Under the pieces are notes generated by a model. It was not told the origin of the DNA. It saw only the letters and a list, made by a program, of their open reading frames with translations, and made no database searches. The translations under genes were made by a program, and so were the position numbers. Below, one piece after another: positions 37,828 through 43,046 of a stretch of 64,000 nucleotides of DNA (positions are counted from its first letter, which is position 1; the number at the start of each line of letters is the position of its first letter). Source of the DNA: a virus; the IMG/VR virus record IMGVR_UViG_3300009320_000008, positions 16,339 through 80,338 of that record; one strand, written 5' to 3'.

Positions 37828-39013
37828 CATAAAAGTTATGTCATACCCATCTTTTCTATTCACTTCTCGGTAATTTTTCTAAGTTTCTGAATTAACTGCA
37901 CTTATTGGGATAAAACACAGTAAGAGGATTGATACAAACACGCTGAACTCCCTACTCCCACGCCTCTCCCAGATATTAAAAAACTATATCCCAAGGCATT
38001 ATACAACGGATATAAGGGATATTAACATCCAGCATAATAACACAGGATATATAAGGGAGATGTCAATCCCTCCAAGATAACGCCCAATCTCGGATACTAC
38101 ATCCTGCTATCCATGCACCTGACCTGATCAAGGAACAACAGATTCCCATTATCAGGAGACAATATCCCATACCCTAAGGTGCACTATAACCCCACTCCTT
38201 AATCAAGACCACTCTAATCAATCCTCAAAACATGTAGCATACGTCCTCAAATAATGAGGATGCATAATCCATAAGTCCAGGTAGCATACTACCTCACATG
38301 TCAGGTAGACAACAAATCAACTACATCCCTTACCAACATCCACTCTATCCGCAACCAATCCCCGACAATCAGGTAGTATAAATAACTATTAAGGTCTTTG
38401 GTCATAAGGATAGACATCCAATCCCAAGTCCTATCATACGGGGTTAACGACATCCCTACCGCAGTCCCTAACCGATCAACCTAATAAGATCCACGTCAAT
38501 CCCCGAATACGACCAATCCCTCTCCCAACTCACTGTCCAGTAAGACCCAGATAACAGCTCCACTCTATCCAAAGACCATCAACAATGCCTCCCTAACCAT
38601 ACCTGAAAGCAGATCGTATAGAGCCGGATTCAAGATAGCTAAGGATAACAAAGGCTGGGAGGTCACTCCCTATATGACAATAACCAAATACCTGCTCCTG
38701 ACCCCGCTAAAAACCCGATAGTAAGACCTCATCCCTAAAATCACCTTGAATCGATCTGCTTCCTCAAAACTTTGAAGTATGCCAAAATGGCACACCTGCA
38801 TATTTTGATGATATCACTTTGTGGCACTTTAAAAGTTTTAATACTCTATTTTGGCACATACCCCAAAATGGCATAGGCCATTTTAGACTATTAAACTTTT
38901 TAACACCGCCAATTTGGCATAGGCCAAAACGGCATAGTAGTTTTAGGGCATACTCTGCTATGGCTTTTTTATTTCACCCTGTTTTTAAAAGGCTACAGTT
39001 CGAATTCAGCCAC

Positions 39014-39050
39014 AAAAAATGCCCTACAGCTTTCGCCATAGGGCATTTTC
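39014..39050 (-). terminator. Intrinsic terminator
   Basis: AAAATGCCCTA...TAGGGCATTTT hairpin with U-tract on the minus strand. Confidence 0.8.
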
Positions 39051-39081
39051 AGTTTCAGCCTGTCAGATACAGGCCAGATTT

Positions 39082-39498
39082 TTACAGTTTGCCGATGAAA
39101 CTGTAACGTTCGTTTTCAAGGCAATTTTCGTCGAGCACGTAAGCCCGTTTCAAAGTAACAGTACGATGCCGAATAAAGGCTTTAATTTGCGATGGCCGTC
39201 TGAAATCTTTGAAGTGTTTTTTGCATGAGCCTGATTTGCCCATGCAAGCTGAAGCAACTGCCATCAATTCTTCAGCCGTAAGCCCGTCTGAAGTGTTAAT
39301 CAAGGCACGATCTAATGCCGCTGTAATGGGCCTGTTGACTTTCGCCCCGACGCCGTTCAGCCATTCTGAGGCTTCTTCAAACGTCTTGAACGATGGCACG
39401 TTCTTGACTGCCGTAGCGTAACGACAGTAACGCCCTCTGCGATCATTGCCTTTCTGTCGAATTACTTTCACTCTTTTTTTGTTAGCTGCTTTTGACAT
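39082..39498 (-). CDS. basic protein, paralog of the C-terminal domain of 34835-35608; stand-alone transcription unit
   Basis: ATG at 39498; flanked by sigma54 promoter and terminator. Confidence 0.75.
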   Translation of the reverse strand: MSKAANKKRVKVIRQKGNDRRGRYCRYATAVKNVPSFKTFEEASEWLNGVGAKVNRPITAALDRALINTSDGLTAEELMAVASACMGKSGSCKKHFKDFRRPSQIKAFIRHRTVTLKRAYVLDENCLENERYSFIGKL

Positions 39499-39570
39499 GT
39501 TGCCCTGCCTTTCGCCTCTTTTGAGGCTGCTATGTGTTTCTGCCCAGTACGGGCATTGCTTTCTTTTATA

Positions 39571-39586
39571 AGCAATTGTTGTGCCA
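39571..39586 (-). promoter_or_regulatory. sigma54 (-24/-12) promoter
   Basis: TGGCAC-AACAA-TTGCT, matching the TGGCAC-N5-TTGCW consensus. Confidence 0.8.
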
Positions 39587-39680
39587 AACATATAAAAGAC
39601 TTATCATTTCAGCGTGTTATGAAAGGCAGTTTATGGCAATGTTATGTTAGAATTATGTTATACTATTATAGTAAAATGCA

Positions 39681-39693
39681 TAACGTATTGATA
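39681..39693 (-). promoter_or_regulatory. IHF binding site
   Basis: TATCAATACGTTA matches WATCAANNNNTTR, in an AT-rich context between promoter and palindrome array. Confidence 0.65.
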
Positions 39694-39762
39694 TACTTAT
39701 ATATAAAAATTCAAGTAGCTACTATTTGTATACAATGTAGCTATACGAAAACGGGCATCCTG

Positions 39763-40163
39763 CTACAAACTATGTAGAAAAAACTACAAAAGATGTAGAC
39801 CACATAGTTTGTAGCATAAACATCATAGTATGTAGGGCAGCATGATTTGTACGTAGTGTTACGTTTCGATACAGCTACATATTATGAGGATGTTTTCGAC
39901 ATTTTGTGTAGTAGGGCTACAGAGTTTGGGAATTGATGACTTGTGCGTAGACATATGTTACATTTCGATACACTGTTTCATATCGTAACACATCCTCATA
40001 ATTTGTAGTATCTACATAGTTTGAGGTAACACAATTATATCATCTACATAGTTTGAGGTACAATGTCTGATAACATGTATTATGTAAACTTTTGCACTAT
40101 ATGTGCAGGGATATGCACAAATGATGCATCAAATAATGAGGATAGCCCCTACATATTATGAGG
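39763..40163. repeat. Array of about 13 15-bp quasi-palindromes C(T/C)(A/T)CA-N5-TG(T/A)(A/G)G
   Basis: Copies at 39763, 39784, 39800, 39821, 39838, 39875, 39897, 39917, 39994, 40012, 40044, 40127, 40149 (also 38223, 38245); some are degenerate. Confidence 0.85.
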
Positions 40164-40445
40164 TGGCCCCTCGATTTACTTTGAAGCCGCCCCTTTGTCG
40201 TCTGGCCGGGGGTACCCACCATAAAATTTTTTCCACACTTCTCCAGAAAGTGTTTTATCCCACCACCCATATAAAAACGGTACTTTAACCCCCTCCCTGA
40301 CTCATCAACGACATCCCCGCCTGTCAATAAGATTAAATGGACTACGGAGTGGGCAAATTAAAGAATACATAGTAATCCCCATTGTTTATCGTTTTAACCT
40401 ATCCATCACTTAGTAGAACTCTTACGGGGCGAAAATTAAAAGTAC

Positions 40446-40475
40446 TTGACAGGGATGTGTGGTTTTTGTTATGAA
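40446..40475 (+). promoter_or_regulatory. candidate sigma70 promoter for the packaging/late arm
   Basis: TTGACA-18nt-TATGAA with TG extension. Confidence 0.5.
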
Positions 40476-40561
40476 TTGTTATGTGGAAGTTATGTTGTTT
40501 TCCCGATTGTGGACTCATAATCTACTCGATGTACATCTTTTAAGGACAAGGAATTTTATCC

Positions 40562-41167
40562 ATGGCACATGTATTTCCCCCCAAATTTAGAGAGAACCAC
40601 GGGAAGTTAATGATAAGGAAGGGAGAGTTTTATACCATTAACAACCTGTTTAACACATGGGAGATTATACCGGATTGTACTGCGTTTCATCCAAATCCTT
40701 GTGTGGCAATGAATATGTGCCATCATGGTAAGGAGGTTGGAAGTAAGTGCGGAGTACAGACCGAGTATATGGAAGTAATCACCGAAATTATTATCAGGAA
40801 CTTCAAGGAGGAGCTGTCGGAGTCGGATTTGTACAGGGTAGGGATGCATCTTATCCCATTGTATAATGTCTTATGTAAGCTGAAGATTGCTATGGTAGGG
40901 GTGGAGCAGGTTACTGTCCACGGTCCTCGGGGAGGGATTGCTATGCATCCGATCTTTAAGGAGTTTCGGCAGCAGATCAAGATTATCGAGGATACGTGGA
41001 AGAGTATCGGTATATCGGAGTTCCCTGATCCTCATAGTCCTTTGGGACCACGTAAGAAGAAGGGTAAACGTCCGCCTTTGGGTATGAAGAAAGCGGGAGA
41101 TGGACACGTTACTTACTACTCCAAGATGGAGGCGGAGGCCTTGGGTAATGGAACTCCTTCTAAGTAA
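40562..41167 (+). CDS. putative terminase small subunit
   Basis: Directly upstream of TerL; G.RGG..MHP....RQ..K..ED.W..IG pattern. Confidence 0.7.
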   Translation: MAHVFPPKFRENHGKLMIRKGEFYTINNLFNTWEIIPDCTAFHPNPCVAMNMCHHGKEVGSKCGVQTEYMEVITEIIIRNFKEELSESDLYRVGMHLIPLYNVLCKLKIAMVGVEQVTVHGPRGGIAMHPIFKEFRQQIKIIEDTWKSIGISEFPDPHSPLGPRKKKGKRPPLGMKKAGDGHVTYYSKMEAEALGNGTPSK

Positions 41168-43046
41168 ACGGACTATAGAGGCCCATGCTCCAAGGGTTTA
41201 TGTTCCGGGAGATTATAGGGACGGGGCGGAGGGGATGATAGATTGGTGTAATACCCATGTCTGTGTTCCTATATATCCGATCAATGAGGATGGGAAAGCG
41301 TTGTATTCGGAATGGTGTTTGTTAGGGGAGTTGCCGGATACCTTACATCCTAAGACCAAAAAATCATATAAACAGATGTGGGAGGCGCAGCAGGAGATAC
41401 TCCGGGAAGCCTTACGAATGGAAGATGGAGAGTTCGTATACCGGTTGCTTATCTTCTGTTGGATGCGTGGTGAAGGGAAGTCGTTATTAGCGGTCTTAAT
41501 ACAATTGTGGAAGTTTTTCAACTGGCCGCGTCAACAGATCATGCTTGGTGCTAACTCGAAAGACCAGGTTAAGTTCGTTCACTTTGATATTATGAGGGAT
41601 ATTATCATCAACAGTCCCCGGTTGATGGAGATGGTCGGCCCTCGGGGGAATATACAGGAGAAGGAGATACGGCTGAAGGACGATTATGGGGACATTAAAT
41701 CCCTGATTCGCAGTATCTCATCTTTTAGTGGTATCGTGTCTAATATTACGGGGTATACGTTCTCCGAGATATTTGACATGAAGAAACCGAAATTCTTTAC
41801 TCAGCTTGATGGATCTATTCGTAACATTCCCAATGCCCTCGGTGTGATCGATTCTACGGTATCATCCAAACTGCATGTTTTGTACCGGTTGTATGAAAAC
41901 TTTACTTTAGGGAAGACCAAGGCGGTCTTCTTTTCATACCGGTGTTCGACTGATGCTGATTTATTGGATTATTGGAATCCCAATATGACGGAAGATCAGT
42001 TGTCAGATTATCAGGTTAAGTTTCCCTTTGGGGAGTTCGAACGGTACTTCCAGAATTTGTGGAGTGCAGGTATCGACCAAGTGTTTTCATCGGAGATGAT
42101 TGAGGAGATGGGGATACTTGGATGTGATGGAGGGATATTGAATCACTCTGATATTAGGGAGACATTGGTTGAGAGGAATAAGCTTGTAGAGGTGTTGGGG
42201 GAATTGAAGGGAAGGGGACTCAATACCAAGTTTAGGCGAATACAGGATGCTACATTCCGAGTAGATGCATATAATGATCGGTTGAAGTCTGTCGAGAATC
42301 TTTACCATATAAGCGAATTCAATGCTCCGTGTGTTCCGGACTTCTTATCGTTTCAGAATTTGACGGACGTGTTTGATACCCATTTTGCATTGATGGCTGG
42401 AGTTGACTTTGGGGATCCTTTTGCCCTTAACTCTCCTGCCAAGACGATACTGGTAGTCGTTGCCAAGGGACTACCGGGAAGTAGATCCTCCCCCTACCAA
42501 TTTGTGGCAGGGCAGTCCGATCCTCGTTATCTATACCTGGTATTATATGTTACCGCTATTAACAAGCACGATCATGGTCTTGTCAAACAGGAGCTGGATG
42601 TTATTCATACAGGGTTTGAAGGAGTGGACGTTCTTTGCTCGGAGCGTTACGGTGCTTGGGATATTCAAGGGTGGTGTGACGACCGGGGAATTGACTTCCA
42701 ACCTATACATCCTACGTATGATAAACAGAAGGAAGCTTTCAAAGCGGTTCTTGAGCCTGTAAGGGATGGGAGATACAAATGCCCCCCAACGGGAGTTCCT
42801 GGAGTTAAAAAGAGAGATATCATTCAGGAAGAGTTCGCTATGTTCAATCATGACGATAACAAGAAGTGGTTTGGAAGCACTGAAAAGGGAGAGAACGCTG
42901 GAGTGCAGGATGACTTCATGTTTGCTAATGCGTGGTGTATATATGGTGGACGAAATCTGTCTGTGGCTGATTTCCGCATCAGACAAGGCATATTGAACTT
43001 CGGTACGTTTGTTCCTGGAACTGGCCTGTTAGGAAATTACGCTTAA
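41148..43046 (+). CDS. terL: terminase large subunit
   Basis: Walker A RGEGKS, ANSKDQ, IDST; nuclease GVDFG...QDD. Confidence 0.9.
   Translation: MELLLSKRTIEAHAPRVYVPGDYRDGAEGMIDWCNTHVCVPIYPINEDGKALYSEWCLLGELPDTLHPKTKKSYKQMWEAQQEILREALRMEDGEFVYRLLIFCWMRGEGKSLLAVLIQLWKFFNWPRQQIMLGANSKDQVKFVHFDIMRDIIINSPRLMEMVGPRGNIQEKEIRLKDDYGDIKSLIRSISSFSGIVSNITGYTFSEIFDMKKPKFFTQLDGSIRNIPNALGVIDSTVSSKLHVLYRLYENFTLGKTKAVFFSYRCSTDADLLDYWNPNMTEDQLSDYQVKFPFGEFERYFQNLWSAGIDQVFSSEMIEEMGILGCDGGILNHSDIRETLVERNKLVEVLGELKGRGLNTKFRRIQDATFRVDAYNDRLKSVENLYHISEFNAPCVPDFLSFQNLTDVFDTHFALMAGVDFGDPFALNSPAKTILVVVAKGLPGSRSSPYQFVAGQSDPRYLYLVLYVTAINKHDHGLVKQELDVIHTGFEGVDVLCSERYGAWDIQGWCDDRGIDFQPIHPTYDKQKEAFKAVLEPVRDGRYKCPPTGVPGVKKRDIIQEEFAMFNHDDNKKWFGSTEKGENAGVQDDFMFANAWCIYGGRNLSVADFRIRQGILNFGTFVPGTGLLGNYA

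What the first reader, a model, noticed from the sequence alone, without database searches (positions are those of the whole stretch)
39082..40163. Phage gene under a full sigma54 promoter + IHF site + enhancer-like array
Seen on the minus strand, in textbook order: a consensus -24/-12 promoter TGGCAC-N5-TTGCT (39586-39571), an IHF consensus about 100 bp upstream (39681-39693), then about 13 15-bp quasi-palindromes CYWCA-N5-TGWRG. Many occur as pairs 21-22 bp apart (39763/39784, 39800/39821, 39875/39897, 40127/40149), i.e. on the same helical face. A second palindrome family TGTTWC-N5-GWWACA (39857, 39956, 39974) and TGCAC-N5-GTGCA (about 40093) are interspersed. The promoter drives one small terminated gene. 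Inference: the phage uses host enhancer-binding proteins to sense host state, or titrates them. This would be unusual for a phage and fits a sigma54-rich host such as a deltaproteobacterium.
Basis: partly seen in the sequence, partly recalled or inferred. Interest (0 to 1): 0.78.

Follow-up and report, generated by a model that had tools for sequence, protein, structure and literature searches.

The report
Phage promoter copying host pilin switch
An uncultured marine phage drives one small orphan gene from a sigma-54 promoter whose upstream sites match those found before bacterial pilus-fibre genes, so the gene is probably switched on by the host's pilus regulator (PilR type); only the sequence evidence exists so far.

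Summary
An exact TGGCAC-N5-TTGCT lies at 39586-39571(-), 62 nt before a real 138-aa gene that ends in a strong terminator. Two related phages keep the -24 and -12 boxes while the spacer differs. An IHF-consensus match lies between the promoter and 12 dyad sites; two more sites lie at 38223/38245.

I split the array into two classes.
- Class A, CTACA-N5-TGTAG: four promoter-proximal sites forming two pairs 21 bp apart, 184-242 bp upstream.
- Class B, CTACA-N5-TGAGG: distal, mostly one orientation, found only in this phage lineage. Its binder is unknown.

Outside this lineage, the class A pair sits beside exact sigma-54 consensus sites in two phages that share essentially no proteins with this one. 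In bacterial contigs it lies at the stop codon of an NtrC-family activator gene in type IV pilus clusters, and before sigma-54-driven prepilin genes. None of these phages encodes RpoN or an activator.

Best reading: a host-dependent, PilR-type enhancer and sigma-54 promoter. No RNA, binding or host data exist.

This scan reached the same reading earlier on other phage DNA. I found no paper on it. A 782-bp stretch free of GGA/GGT on both strands covers exactly this transcription unit and is unexplained.

The parts
39082..39498 (-). 138-aa orphan gene, the only gene of the sigma-54 unit
   Evidence: Open frame. Purifying selection against the L001 homologue: 44 synonymous and 18 non-synonymous codon changes. 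No Pfam, PHROG or NCBIfam match. One homologue in 5.8 billion proteins and no other clear relative among 1.84 billion representatives. Helical AF2 model, pLDDT 68, with no fold match.
39015..39075 (-). Intrinsic terminator: two hairpins and a U-run directly after the stop codon
   Evidence: RNA fold dG -35.1 kcal/mol, z -7.41; 0 of 200 shuffles fold as well.
39571..39586 (-). Sigma-54 promoter TGGCAC-AACAA-TTGCT (GG at 39585-39584, GC at 39573-39572); predicted start near 39560, leader about 62 nt
   Evidence: Exact consensus, unique in the 80-kb phage record. L001 keeps both boxes with all five spacer bases changed. L002 has TGGCAT-N5-TTGCA at the matching place.
39681..39693 (-). IHF-consensus match, about 101 bp upstream of the -24 box, midway to the first dyads
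   Evidence: One of 3 matches in 64 kb; 3.5% of spacer shuffles match. L001 keeps TCAA-N4-TTA with one core mismatch.
39715..39744 (.). Two GTAGCTAY octamers 22 bp apart (abutting half-sites), kept in L001 and L002
   Evidence: Read from the sequence and the alignments. Function not tested.
39763..39835 (.). Class A enhancer core: four CTACA-N5-TGTAG-type dyads (39763, 39784, 39800, 39821) as two pairs 21 bp apart, centres 184-242 bp upstream of the -24 box
   Evidence: All four are kept in L001 with changed spacers. L002 has the same pair 171/192 bp upstream. The same pair occurs at bacterial pilR/pilin loci.
39875..40163 (.). Distal array. Class B CTACA-N5-TGAGG sites at 39875, 40012, 40044, 40127, 40149 (+ orientation) and 39994 (reverse). 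Weak sites at 39897 and 39917. TGTTAC-type dyads at 39857, 39956, 39974. TGCAC dyad at 40094.
   Evidence: The asymmetry and orientation of class B are kept in L001. Absent from L002, where another repeat family fills the interval. No other phage has such an array.
38223..38259 (.). Outlying pair of class B-type dyads (CCTCA..TGTAG and CCTCA..TGAGG, 22 bp apart) in the non-coding stretch between the terminator and the early sigma-70-type promoter
   Evidence: Kept in L001 with changed spacers. No sigma-54-like site with up to 3 mismatches within about 500 bp on either strand in either phage.
40165..40235 (+). G+C-rich block conserved in L001 and L002, next to the packaging genes; candidate packaging (cos/pac) signal, not shown
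   Evidence: Alignment. Small DNA contigs of two marine runs read across it.
40562..41167 (+). 201-aa probable small terminase, first gene of the rightward structural operon
   Evidence: Position before TerL. Atlas neighbours carry Terminase_4 in 19-24% of members. Conserved in L001 (76%) and L002 (47%).
41100..43046 (+). Large terminase
   Evidence: PHROG 9 and 2, E 3e-12 and 3.5e-9.
38976..39758 (.). 782-bp stretch with no GGA, GGT, TCC or ACC; coextensive with terminator, gene, promoter and spacer
   Evidence: Mean gap 14.7 bp and next largest gap 100 bp. The same unit in L001 is free of these triplets over 1114 bp.

Best explanation
This is a host-dependent sigma-54 transcription unit that copies the control region of a bacterial type IV pilin gene.

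Proposed mechanism.
1. Host RNA polymerase with sigma-54 binds the -24/-12 promoter at 39586-39571(-) and forms a closed complex.
2. A host NtrC-family enhancer-binding protein of the PilR type binds as dimers to the four CTACA-N5-TGTAG dyads at 39763-39835. The dyads form two pairs two helical turns apart. The protein then assembles into the active ring.
3. A bend at the A+T-rich spacer, probably made by IHF at 39693-39681, brings the ring to the promoter.
4. ATP hydrolysis opens the DNA. A roughly 540-nt mRNA for one 138-aa protein of unknown function is made and ends at the terminator at 39044-39015.

The phage supplies neither sigma-54 nor the activator. Expression should therefore follow the activity of the host's pilus regulator.

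What is shown: the sequence elements, their conservation pattern, their recurrence in unrelated phages, and their match to bacterial pilR/pilin loci.

What is inferred: binding, sigma-54 dependence, the identity of the activator, and the host.

The distal asymmetric sites (class B, 39875-40163 and 38223-38259) are a separate, lineage-specific layer. They may be weaker sites for the same protein or sites for a phage protein.
For: 1. Promoter. It is an exact consensus and unique in the 80-kb phage record. L001 (TerL 87% identical) keeps TGGCAC and TTGCT while all 5 spacer bases differ. L002 (TerL 67%) has TGGCAT-N5-TTGCA in the same place.

2. Sites. Half-sites are 77.5% conserved against L001, spacers 58% and background 65% (p about 0.01). 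In L002 only three symmetric sites remain, centred 80, 171 and 192 bp upstream of the -24 box.

3. Recurrence in unrelated phages. A scan of viral contigs for the 21-bp-spaced pair gave 7 contigs.
- Two of them, G001 (68 kb, GC 53%) and G002 (43 kb, GC 55%), each carry two exact TGGCAC-N5-TTGCW sites, all within 1.6 kb of the pair.
- In both, the pair lies upstream of one of these promoters. The dyad occurs nowhere else in either genome.
- G000, G001 and G002 share no proteins, apart from one unrelated pair each for G000-G002 and G001-G002. A common phage-encoded binder is therefore unlikely.

4. No RpoN or Sigma54_activat protein is found in these phages. The one weak hit is a clamp loader carrying an intein.

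5. Bacterial counterparts from the metagenome scan.
- L106: histidine kinase, then a response-regulator activator, then the pair at that gene's stop codon, then TGGTAC-N5-TTGCA 100 bp on, then a pilin with an N_methyl domain.
- L121: PilB-like, PilC-like, then an activator with the pair over its stop codon.
- L170 and L151: the pair, then a sigma-54-like site 112-118 bp on, then a prepilin-type gene.
- Only these two of the 80 loci encode an activator within 3 kb. The two activators are 54% identical and have similar recognition helices.

6. The 5-N5-5 geometry with 2-3 sites within 500 bp of the promoter is what is published for NtrC-like regulators (NmpR, PMC11841059).

7. IHF match.
Against: - There are no RNA data. 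No RNA holder was listed, so sigma-54 dependence and the transcript start are untested.
- The host is unknown. TerL relatives sit in MAG contigs of three different phyla.
- Most metagenome contigs with the same pair have no sigma-54 site (4 of 90 pairs, no enrichment). Some phage contigs use GCTACA-N5-TGTAGC pairs before a small repressor-like gene without a sigma-54 promoter. The dyad is therefore not specific to one protein family.
- The published Pseudomonas aeruginosa PilR site is described differently, as TGT-N11-AGA plus GTCT elements (PMC6058289).
- The enhancer lies 184-242 bp from the -24 box, further than in the bacterial examples, where the centre of the pair lies 119-137 bp away.
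- The 38223/38245 pair has no sigma-54 site near it.
- Class B sites are directional and lineage-specific, which a simple enhancer does not explain.
Confidence: 0.6

Rival explanations
1. The array, above all the directional class B sites, is a phage DNA-handling element. It could be recognition sites for the small terminase next to a cos/pac site, or iterons of a replication origin beside the A+T-rich stretch. On this reading the sigma-54 promoter is a separate neighbour.
For: The array lies between the promoter and a conserved G+C-rich block just upstream of the probable terS/terL genes. In G001 and G002 the module also lies divergently upstream of terminase genes. Class B sites are asymmetric, mostly in one orientation and lineage-specific. 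In L002 the same interval is filled by a different repeat family. The adjacent stretch 39590-39760 is 73% A+T. Cumulative GC skew turns here. Lambda cosB also combines repeated sites with an IHF site (established knowledge).
Against: The symmetric pair recurs with sigma-54 promoters in phages whose terminases are unrelated, and at bacterial pilin loci. Class A is therefore not a terminase or initiator site. The TerS proteins of the window and L002 are 47% identical, with no obvious swap of a DNA-binding module. No initiator gene is adjacent. The GC-skew turn coincides with the switch of gene orientation. Genome ends were not mapped.
Confidence: 0.25
2. The promoter is sigma-54 dependent, but the activator is another host NtrC/NifA-family protein, for example a nitrogen regulator that uses CTACA/TGTAG boxes, rather than PilR.
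For: NtrC-like proteins in general use such dyads (PMC11841059). The published P. aeruginosa PilR site looks different (PMC6058289).
Against: All sites here have N5 spacing, not N4. Among 80 metagenome loci with the N5 pair, the only activator genes and the only sigma-54-driven genes next to the pair belong to type IV pilus or prepilin contexts.
Confidence: 0.12
3. The many sites act mainly as a sink. Replicating phage DNA with up to about 14 sites per copy draws the pilus regulator away from the host pilin promoter and lowers piliation, which would exclude further pilus-dependent phages. Transcription of the small gene would be secondary. This is not exclusive of the best explanation.
For: Site number, 12-13 plus 2, far exceeds the 2-3 of the bacterial and other phage examples. 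The sites are conserved in L001.
Against: Most surplus sites carry a TGAGG half-site not seen at the bacterial pilin promoters, so their affinity for the same protein is doubtful. Nothing shows that the phage uses pili, and no pilin-like gene is found in it. No binding data exist.
Confidence: 0.12
4. Chance resemblance: the promoter-like and dyad motifs have no regulatory role.
For: Short motifs; with up to 1 mismatch the promoter pattern is expected 1.55 times per window.
Against: Exact match in the right place and orientation. Box-specific conservation. Tenfold excess of dyads clustered in two intergenic spots. Half-site-specific conservation. Recurrence in unrelated phages.
Confidence: 0.03

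Closest known systems
PilS-PilR / sigma-54 control of the major type IV pilin gene (pilA of Pseudomonas aeruginosa, Myxococcus xanthus, Geobacter sulfurreducens)
   Same: A -24/-12 promoter with upstream sites for an NtrC-family response regulator. In the bacterial contigs L106 and L121 the very dyad pair used by the phage sits at the end of the pilR-like gene, and in L106 a pilin gene follows.
   Different: The phage unit drives an orphan 138-aa gene, not a pilin. It has no pilS/pilR of its own. Its enhancer is further from the promoter and is extended by a second class of sites. The published P. aeruginosa PilR site has another form (PMC6058289).
NtrC-like enhancers such as NmpR of M. xanthus (GCGCA-N5-TGCGC; PMC11841059) and NtrC at glnAp2
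   Same: 5-N5-5 dyads, several sites per promoter, cooperative binding, action from up to a few hundred bp.
   Different: Different half-site sequence. These are cellular regulons, not phage genes.
IHF-assisted sigma-54 promoters (nifH, Pu; Geobacter IHF study PMC7962754)
   Same: An IHF-consensus site between the enhancer and the promoter in an A+T-rich spacer.
   Different: The IHF site here rests on a consensus match only (p about 0.035) and is imperfectly kept in L001. Whether the host has IHF is unknown.
Lambda cosB (R sites plus IHF site I1) and iteron origins
   Same: Repeated protein sites plus an IHF site beside the terminase genes; an A+T-rich flank.
   Different: The symmetric sites recur with sigma-54 promoters in phages with unrelated terminases. 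The array lies on the far side of the conserved block from terS. No ends were mapped.
Phage-borne sigma-54 promoters with PilR-type sites noted earlier in this scan (e1-5344946, e1-5728833, e1-6058179 and others)
   Same: Same wiring: sigma-54 promoter, paired dyads like those at pilin promoters, orphan accessory genes, no phage activator.
   Different: Here there is a single one-gene unit, placed next to the packaging genes. It has a large extra array of asymmetric sites and a unit-wide absence of GGA/GGT. Those notes are unchecked AI notes, not publications.

Membership tests
Sigma-54 (-24/-12) promoter | GG and GC doublets exactly ten bases apart within TGGCAC-N5-TTGCW | tested here: met
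   Exact match at 39586-39571(-).
Sigma-54 (-24/-12) promoter | Boxes conserved in relatives while the spacer is free to vary | tested here: met
   L001 has all 5 spacer bases changed and the boxes intact. L002 has TGGCAT-N5-TTGCA.
Sigma-54 (-24/-12) promoter | Transcription starts about 12 nt after the GC and needs RpoN | not testable with these tools
   No RNA run was listed; the host is unknown.
Sigma-54 (-24/-12) promoter | Activator sites upstream within a few hundred bp | tested here: met
   Four symmetric dyads centred 184-242 bp upstream.
PilR-type enhancer of type IV pilin promoters | The same dyad pair found at bacterial pilR/pilin loci with a sigma-54 promoter | tested here: met
   L106, L121, L170 and L151.
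PilR-type enhancer of type IV pilin promoters | Bound and activated by PilR of the host | not testable with these tools
   No host genome and no binding data.
PilR-type enhancer of type IV pilin promoters | Downstream gene is a pilin | tested here: not met
   The 138-aa product has no prepilin motif or family match. The phage unit works like a pilin promoter but is not a pilin locus.
PilR-type enhancer of type IV pilin promoters | Agreement with the experimentally defined PilR site of P. aeruginosa | tested here: not met
   That site is described as TGT-N11-AGA plus GTCT elements (PMC6058289). Specificity must differ between lineages if the reading is right.
IHF-assisted looping | WATCAANNNNTTR between enhancer and promoter | tested here: met
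   39693-39681(-); 3.5% of shuffles match.
IHF-assisted looping | Site conserved in relatives | tested here: inconclusive
   L001 keeps TCAA-N4-TTA but has T for A in the core.
Terminase recognition array (cosB/pac-like) | Repeats next to the cut site and terS that vary together with the small terminase | tested here: inconclusive
   The array adjoins the conserved block and terS. L002 has other repeats, but its TerS is 47% identical with no clear module swap. Ends were not mapped.
Iteron replication origin | Direct repeats beside an A+T-rich unwinding element and an initiator gene | tested here: inconclusive
   Directional class B repeats and a 73% A+T flank are present. No initiator gene is adjacent. 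The GC-skew turn is confounded by gene orientation.

The most novel reading that the evidence does not exclude
The phage reads, and perhaps rewires, the host's pilus-sensing circuit. A PilR-type activator fires the orphan gene only in cells whose pilus regulator is active. The roughly 14 conserved sites per genome copy soak up that regulator as the phage replicates and shut off pilin synthesis. The whole unit is kept free of GGA/GGT on both strands, so that it escapes a phage-imposed DNA hypermodification (the phage carries a 7-deazaguanine cluster) or a sequence-specific nuclease that acts on the rest of the genome.
Probability: 0.15. Interest if true: 0.85.

Novelty: new variant of a known kind. 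Interest (0 to 1): 0.64.

Why it matters
Phage gene control is usually described through sigma-70 promoters, phage sigma factors, phage polymerases or phage activators. A phage promoter that needs host sigma-54 and a host two-component regulator would tie phage gene expression to a host signal. Here that signal is probably the state of the type IV pilus, a common phage receptor.

The same dyad pair beside exact sigma-54 sites in three phage lineages with essentially no shared proteins argues for repeated capture of this switch. It also offers a sequence handle for host prediction: hosts whose pilR/pilin locus uses CTACA-N5-TGTAG.

I found no publication on this in the held library. Earlier notes of this scan report the same wiring on other phage DNA.

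Tried and rejected
- blastn of the region against deposited phages: no match.
- Rfam and tRNA scans of the surroundings: nothing credible.
- Function of the 138-aa protein: no family, no homologue beyond L001, no fold match by Foldseek or VIA (best Z 5.2, within noise), atlas scores under 0.83.
- Sequencing runs: no RNA holder was listed. Two marine DNA runs gave only 150-440-nt contigs, which cannot show ends or transcripts.
- Host: the TerL scan of genomes hit three MAG contigs of different phyla. The pair pattern was absent from those MAGs and from the 401 genomes searched in the phylum of one of them.
- Scan for a single site plus promoter in viral contigs: 10 hits, about the chance level by my own estimate.
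- Scans for the pair plus TGGCA at set distances gave only chance TGGCA hits and the known L002 contig.
- Scan for a class B tandem: apart from L001's contig, nearly all hits look like coding repeats.
- Contig ends of TerL relatives often lie 0.2-4 kb upstream of terL. I could not tie them to the conserved block.
- The idea that all 13 sites are one enhancer was rejected after the class split.
- A phage-encoded activator was rejected.
- No integrase was found.
Full report
**Setting.** The window is bases 16339-80338 of an 80,338-bp IMG/VR virus record rated 93% complete. Genes left of about 39,500 run leftward. They include a primase, a DnaB-like helicase, a DEAD-box helicase and many small orphan genes. 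Genes right of 40,560 run rightward: a probable small terminase, the large terminase, the portal and structural genes. The finding lies in the divergent gap between the two blocks. No integrase was found.

**The observation.**
- On the minus strand, TGGCAC-AACAA-TTGCT occupies 39586-39571.
- It lies 62 nt before the ATG of a 138-aa open frame (39082-39498).
- That frame is under purifying selection against its only homologue: 75 identical codons, 44 synonymous and 18 non-synonymous changes.
- It ends in a strong two-hairpin terminator with a U-run, dG -35 kcal/mol and z -7.4.
- The IHF consensus matches at 39693-39681. This is one of three matches in 64 kb, and 3.5% of spacer shuffles give a match.
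- CYWCA-N5-TGWRG occurs exactly 10 times in the window against 0.96 expected. Eight lie in 39763-40163 and two at 38223/38245. Four or five one-mismatch copies lie in the main array.
- The stated pairs 21-22 bp apart are there. So are the TGTTWC and TGCAC dyads.

**Is the promoter real?**
- In the close relative L001 (TerL 87% identical) the two boxes are intact while all five spacer bases differ.
- In L002 (TerL 67%) the matching position has TGGCAT-N5-TTGCA.
- No other good sigma-54 match exists in the whole phage record.
- No sigma-70-type site scoring above 9 of 12 lies in front of the gene.
- This box-specific conservation is what a working -24/-12 promoter predicts. Transcription itself is untested.

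**Two classes of sites.**
- *Class A.* The four promoter-proximal sites (39763, 39784, 39800, 39821) have CTACA/TGTAG-type halves. They form two pairs 21 bp apart, centred 184-242 bp upstream of the -24 box.
- *Class B.* The distal sites are asymmetric (CTACA-N5-TGAGG) and mostly in one orientation. The outlying pair at 38223/38245 carries the same CCTCA/TGAGG half.
- *Conservation.* Against L001, half-sites are 77.5% conserved, spacers 58% and background 65% (p about 0.01). Eight or nine of the 12 sites persist, class B with its asymmetry intact.
- *L002.* It keeps only three symmetric sites, centred 80, 171 and 192 bp upstream. It fills the rest of the interval with a different repeat family.
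- *Other phages.* No other phage in the viral collection has a class B array.
- *Outlying pair.* It is conserved in L001 but has no sigma-54-like site within about 500 bp.
- I therefore treat class A as the enhancer and class B as a lineage-specific layer of unknown binder.

**Recurrence in unrelated phages.**
- A scan of viral contigs for two CTACA-N5-TGTAG sites 21 bp apart found seven contigs.
- Besides L002's contig, two are informative: G001 (68 kb, GC 53%) and G002 (43 kb, 100% complete, GC 55%).
- Each has two exact TGGCAC-N5-TTGCW sites on one strand, all within 1.6 kb of the pair.
- In both, the pair lies upstream of one promoter, and the dyad is found nowhere else in the genome.
- By my own estimate, an exact match within 400 bp of a given point has a chance of about 2 in 10,000.
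- G000, G001 and G002 share no proteins at E 1e-4, apart from one unrelated pair each for G000-G002 and G001-G002.
- None encodes a Sigma54_activat or RpoN domain. The one weak hit in this phage is a clamp loader with an intein.
- In all three, the module lies divergently upstream of the terminase genes and drives small orphan genes.
- A shared phage-encoded binder is thus unlikely. A host activator is the simplest reading.

**Which activator?**
- The same pattern in metagenome contigs gave 119 hits. Most have no sigma-54 site and are other uses of the motif: dispersed repeats and operators.
- The only two of 80 loci that encode an enhancer-binding protein within 3 kb are both pilus loci.
  - L106 reads: histidine kinase, response-regulator activator (Response_reg, Sigma54_activat, HTH_8), the pair at its stop codon, TGGTAC-N5-TTGCA 100 bp further, and a pilin with the N-terminal methylation motif.
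  - L121 reads: PilB-like ATPase, PilC-like platform protein, an activator with the pair over its stop codon, then the contig end.
  - The two activators are 54% identical, with similar recognition helices.
- L170 and L151 have the pair, a sigma-54-like site 112-118 bp on, and a prepilin-type gene.
- Of 8 prepilin-motif hits in 568 kb of six-frame translation, 3 stand next to the pair.
- The 5-N5-5 form with 2-3 sites is the published pattern for NtrC-like regulators (PMC11841059).
- Hence the PilR-type assignment, which I reached before I read the scan's earlier notes.
- *Caveats.* The P. aeruginosa PilR site is described differently (PMC6058289). The dyad also occurs before a repressor-like gene in other phages.

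**Confidence, step by step.**

| Step | Probability |
|---|---|
| The promoter is sigma-54 dependent | about 0.8 |
| It is activated through class A sites by a host activator | about 0.7 |
| That activator is the pilus regulator | about 0.55-0.6 |
| IHF assists | about 0.5 |

The function of the 138-aa protein is unknown.

**Rivals for the array.** Its place beside a conserved G+C-rich block (40165-40235) and the packaging genes, the directional class B repeats, the A+T-rich flank and the turn of GC skew fit a packaging or origin element. This cannot be excluded for class B. It is unlikely for class A, given the unrelated terminases of the other phages. A regulator-sink role for the surplus sites is possible but untested.

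**A linked oddity.** From 38976 to 39758 there is no GGA, GGT, TCC or ACC. This stretch is exactly the terminator, gene, promoter and spacer. The mean gap between such triplets is 14.7 bp and the next largest is 100 bp. In L001 the same unit is free of them over 1114 bp, despite 44 synonymous changes in the gene. It implies selection at the DNA level, or on both transcripts, that is specific to this unit. The phage's 7-deazaguanine cluster (e1-6074119, not checked here) is one candidate cause.

**Novelty.** Sigma-54 promoters, NtrC-type enhancers and PilR control of pilin are textbook. Their capture by phages to drive orphan genes is not in the papers I could search. This scan has reported it on other phage DNA. 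This window adds three things: a one-gene unit beside the packaging genes, the extra class B array, and the motif-free island.

Noticed in passing
window 38976-39758; L001 1966-3080: No GGA, GGT, TCC or ACC on either strand across exactly the sigma-54 unit (782 bp here, 1114 bp in L001; genome mean gap about 15 bp). It is conserved despite many synonymous changes. The cause is unknown; escape from a DNA modification or a nuclease is one idea.
   Followed up: partly
window 38223-38259: Two conserved dyads (CCTCA..TGTAG and the perfect 17-mer TCCTCAAATAATGAGGA) sit 22 bp apart. They lie about 400 bp upstream of the early sigma-70-type promoter (37827-37798, -) and about 1.5 kb from the main array, with no sigma-54 site nearby. 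DNA looping between the two clusters is conceivable.
   Followed up: partly
window 37830-39020: A 1.2-kb non-coding stretch that is G/T-rich on the minus strand (GC skew -0.31). It holds repeated GGATAGAGTGGA-like units and several TGCCA-N3-TGGCA-like motifs at 38800-38960. It is partly alignable to L001.
   Followed up: no
window 39956-39990; L001 aligned: Two adjacent TGTTAC-N5-GTAACA-type dyads inside the array are kept in L001 with changed spacers. They may be sites for a second dimeric DNA-binding protein.
   Followed up: partly
window 40067-40100 and 40165-40235; L002 833-990: Blocks conserved across three phages: GTCTGATAAC..TTATGT.AACTTTT, and a G+C-rich CCCCTCGATTT..GCCCC stretch. They lie just upstream of the packaging genes and are a candidate cos/pac region.
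   Followed up: partly
window 40447-40476 (+): TTGACA-N18-TATGAA before the probable small terminase gene is conserved in L001. It is a possible sigma-70-type promoter of the structural operon.
   Followed up: no
L002 270-830: A dense array of TGAAT/ATTCA-containing repeats replaces the class B array of the window, in the same interval between the enhancer and the conserved block.
   Followed up: partly
G001 54950-55090 (L098 14950-15090): Tandem GGGTAACGGGCCTCTGGCTACAATATAC and GCGGGCCTCTGTAT repeats lie between the sigma-54 module and GpA-type terminase genes in an unrelated phage.
   Followed up: no
L254 (viral contig, 31 kb): Three exact sigma-54 consensus sites lie within 500 bp on one strand. 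Three tandem CTACAAAAAATGTAG sites lie 3.3 kb away. This is another phage that may use sigma-54.
   Followed up: no
L251 and L256: GCTACA-N5-TGTAGC sites 22 bp apart lie before a 60-aa repressor-like gene and have no sigma-54 promoter. The same dyad therefore also serves other regulators.
   Followed up: no
ERZ827108 contigs (L100, L109, L130, L142 and others): One metagenome assembly (contigs at about 30-40x coverage) carries many dispersed copies of CTACA(A/T)G(G/C)C(A/T)TGTAG pairs. This looks like a repeat-element family.
   Followed up: no
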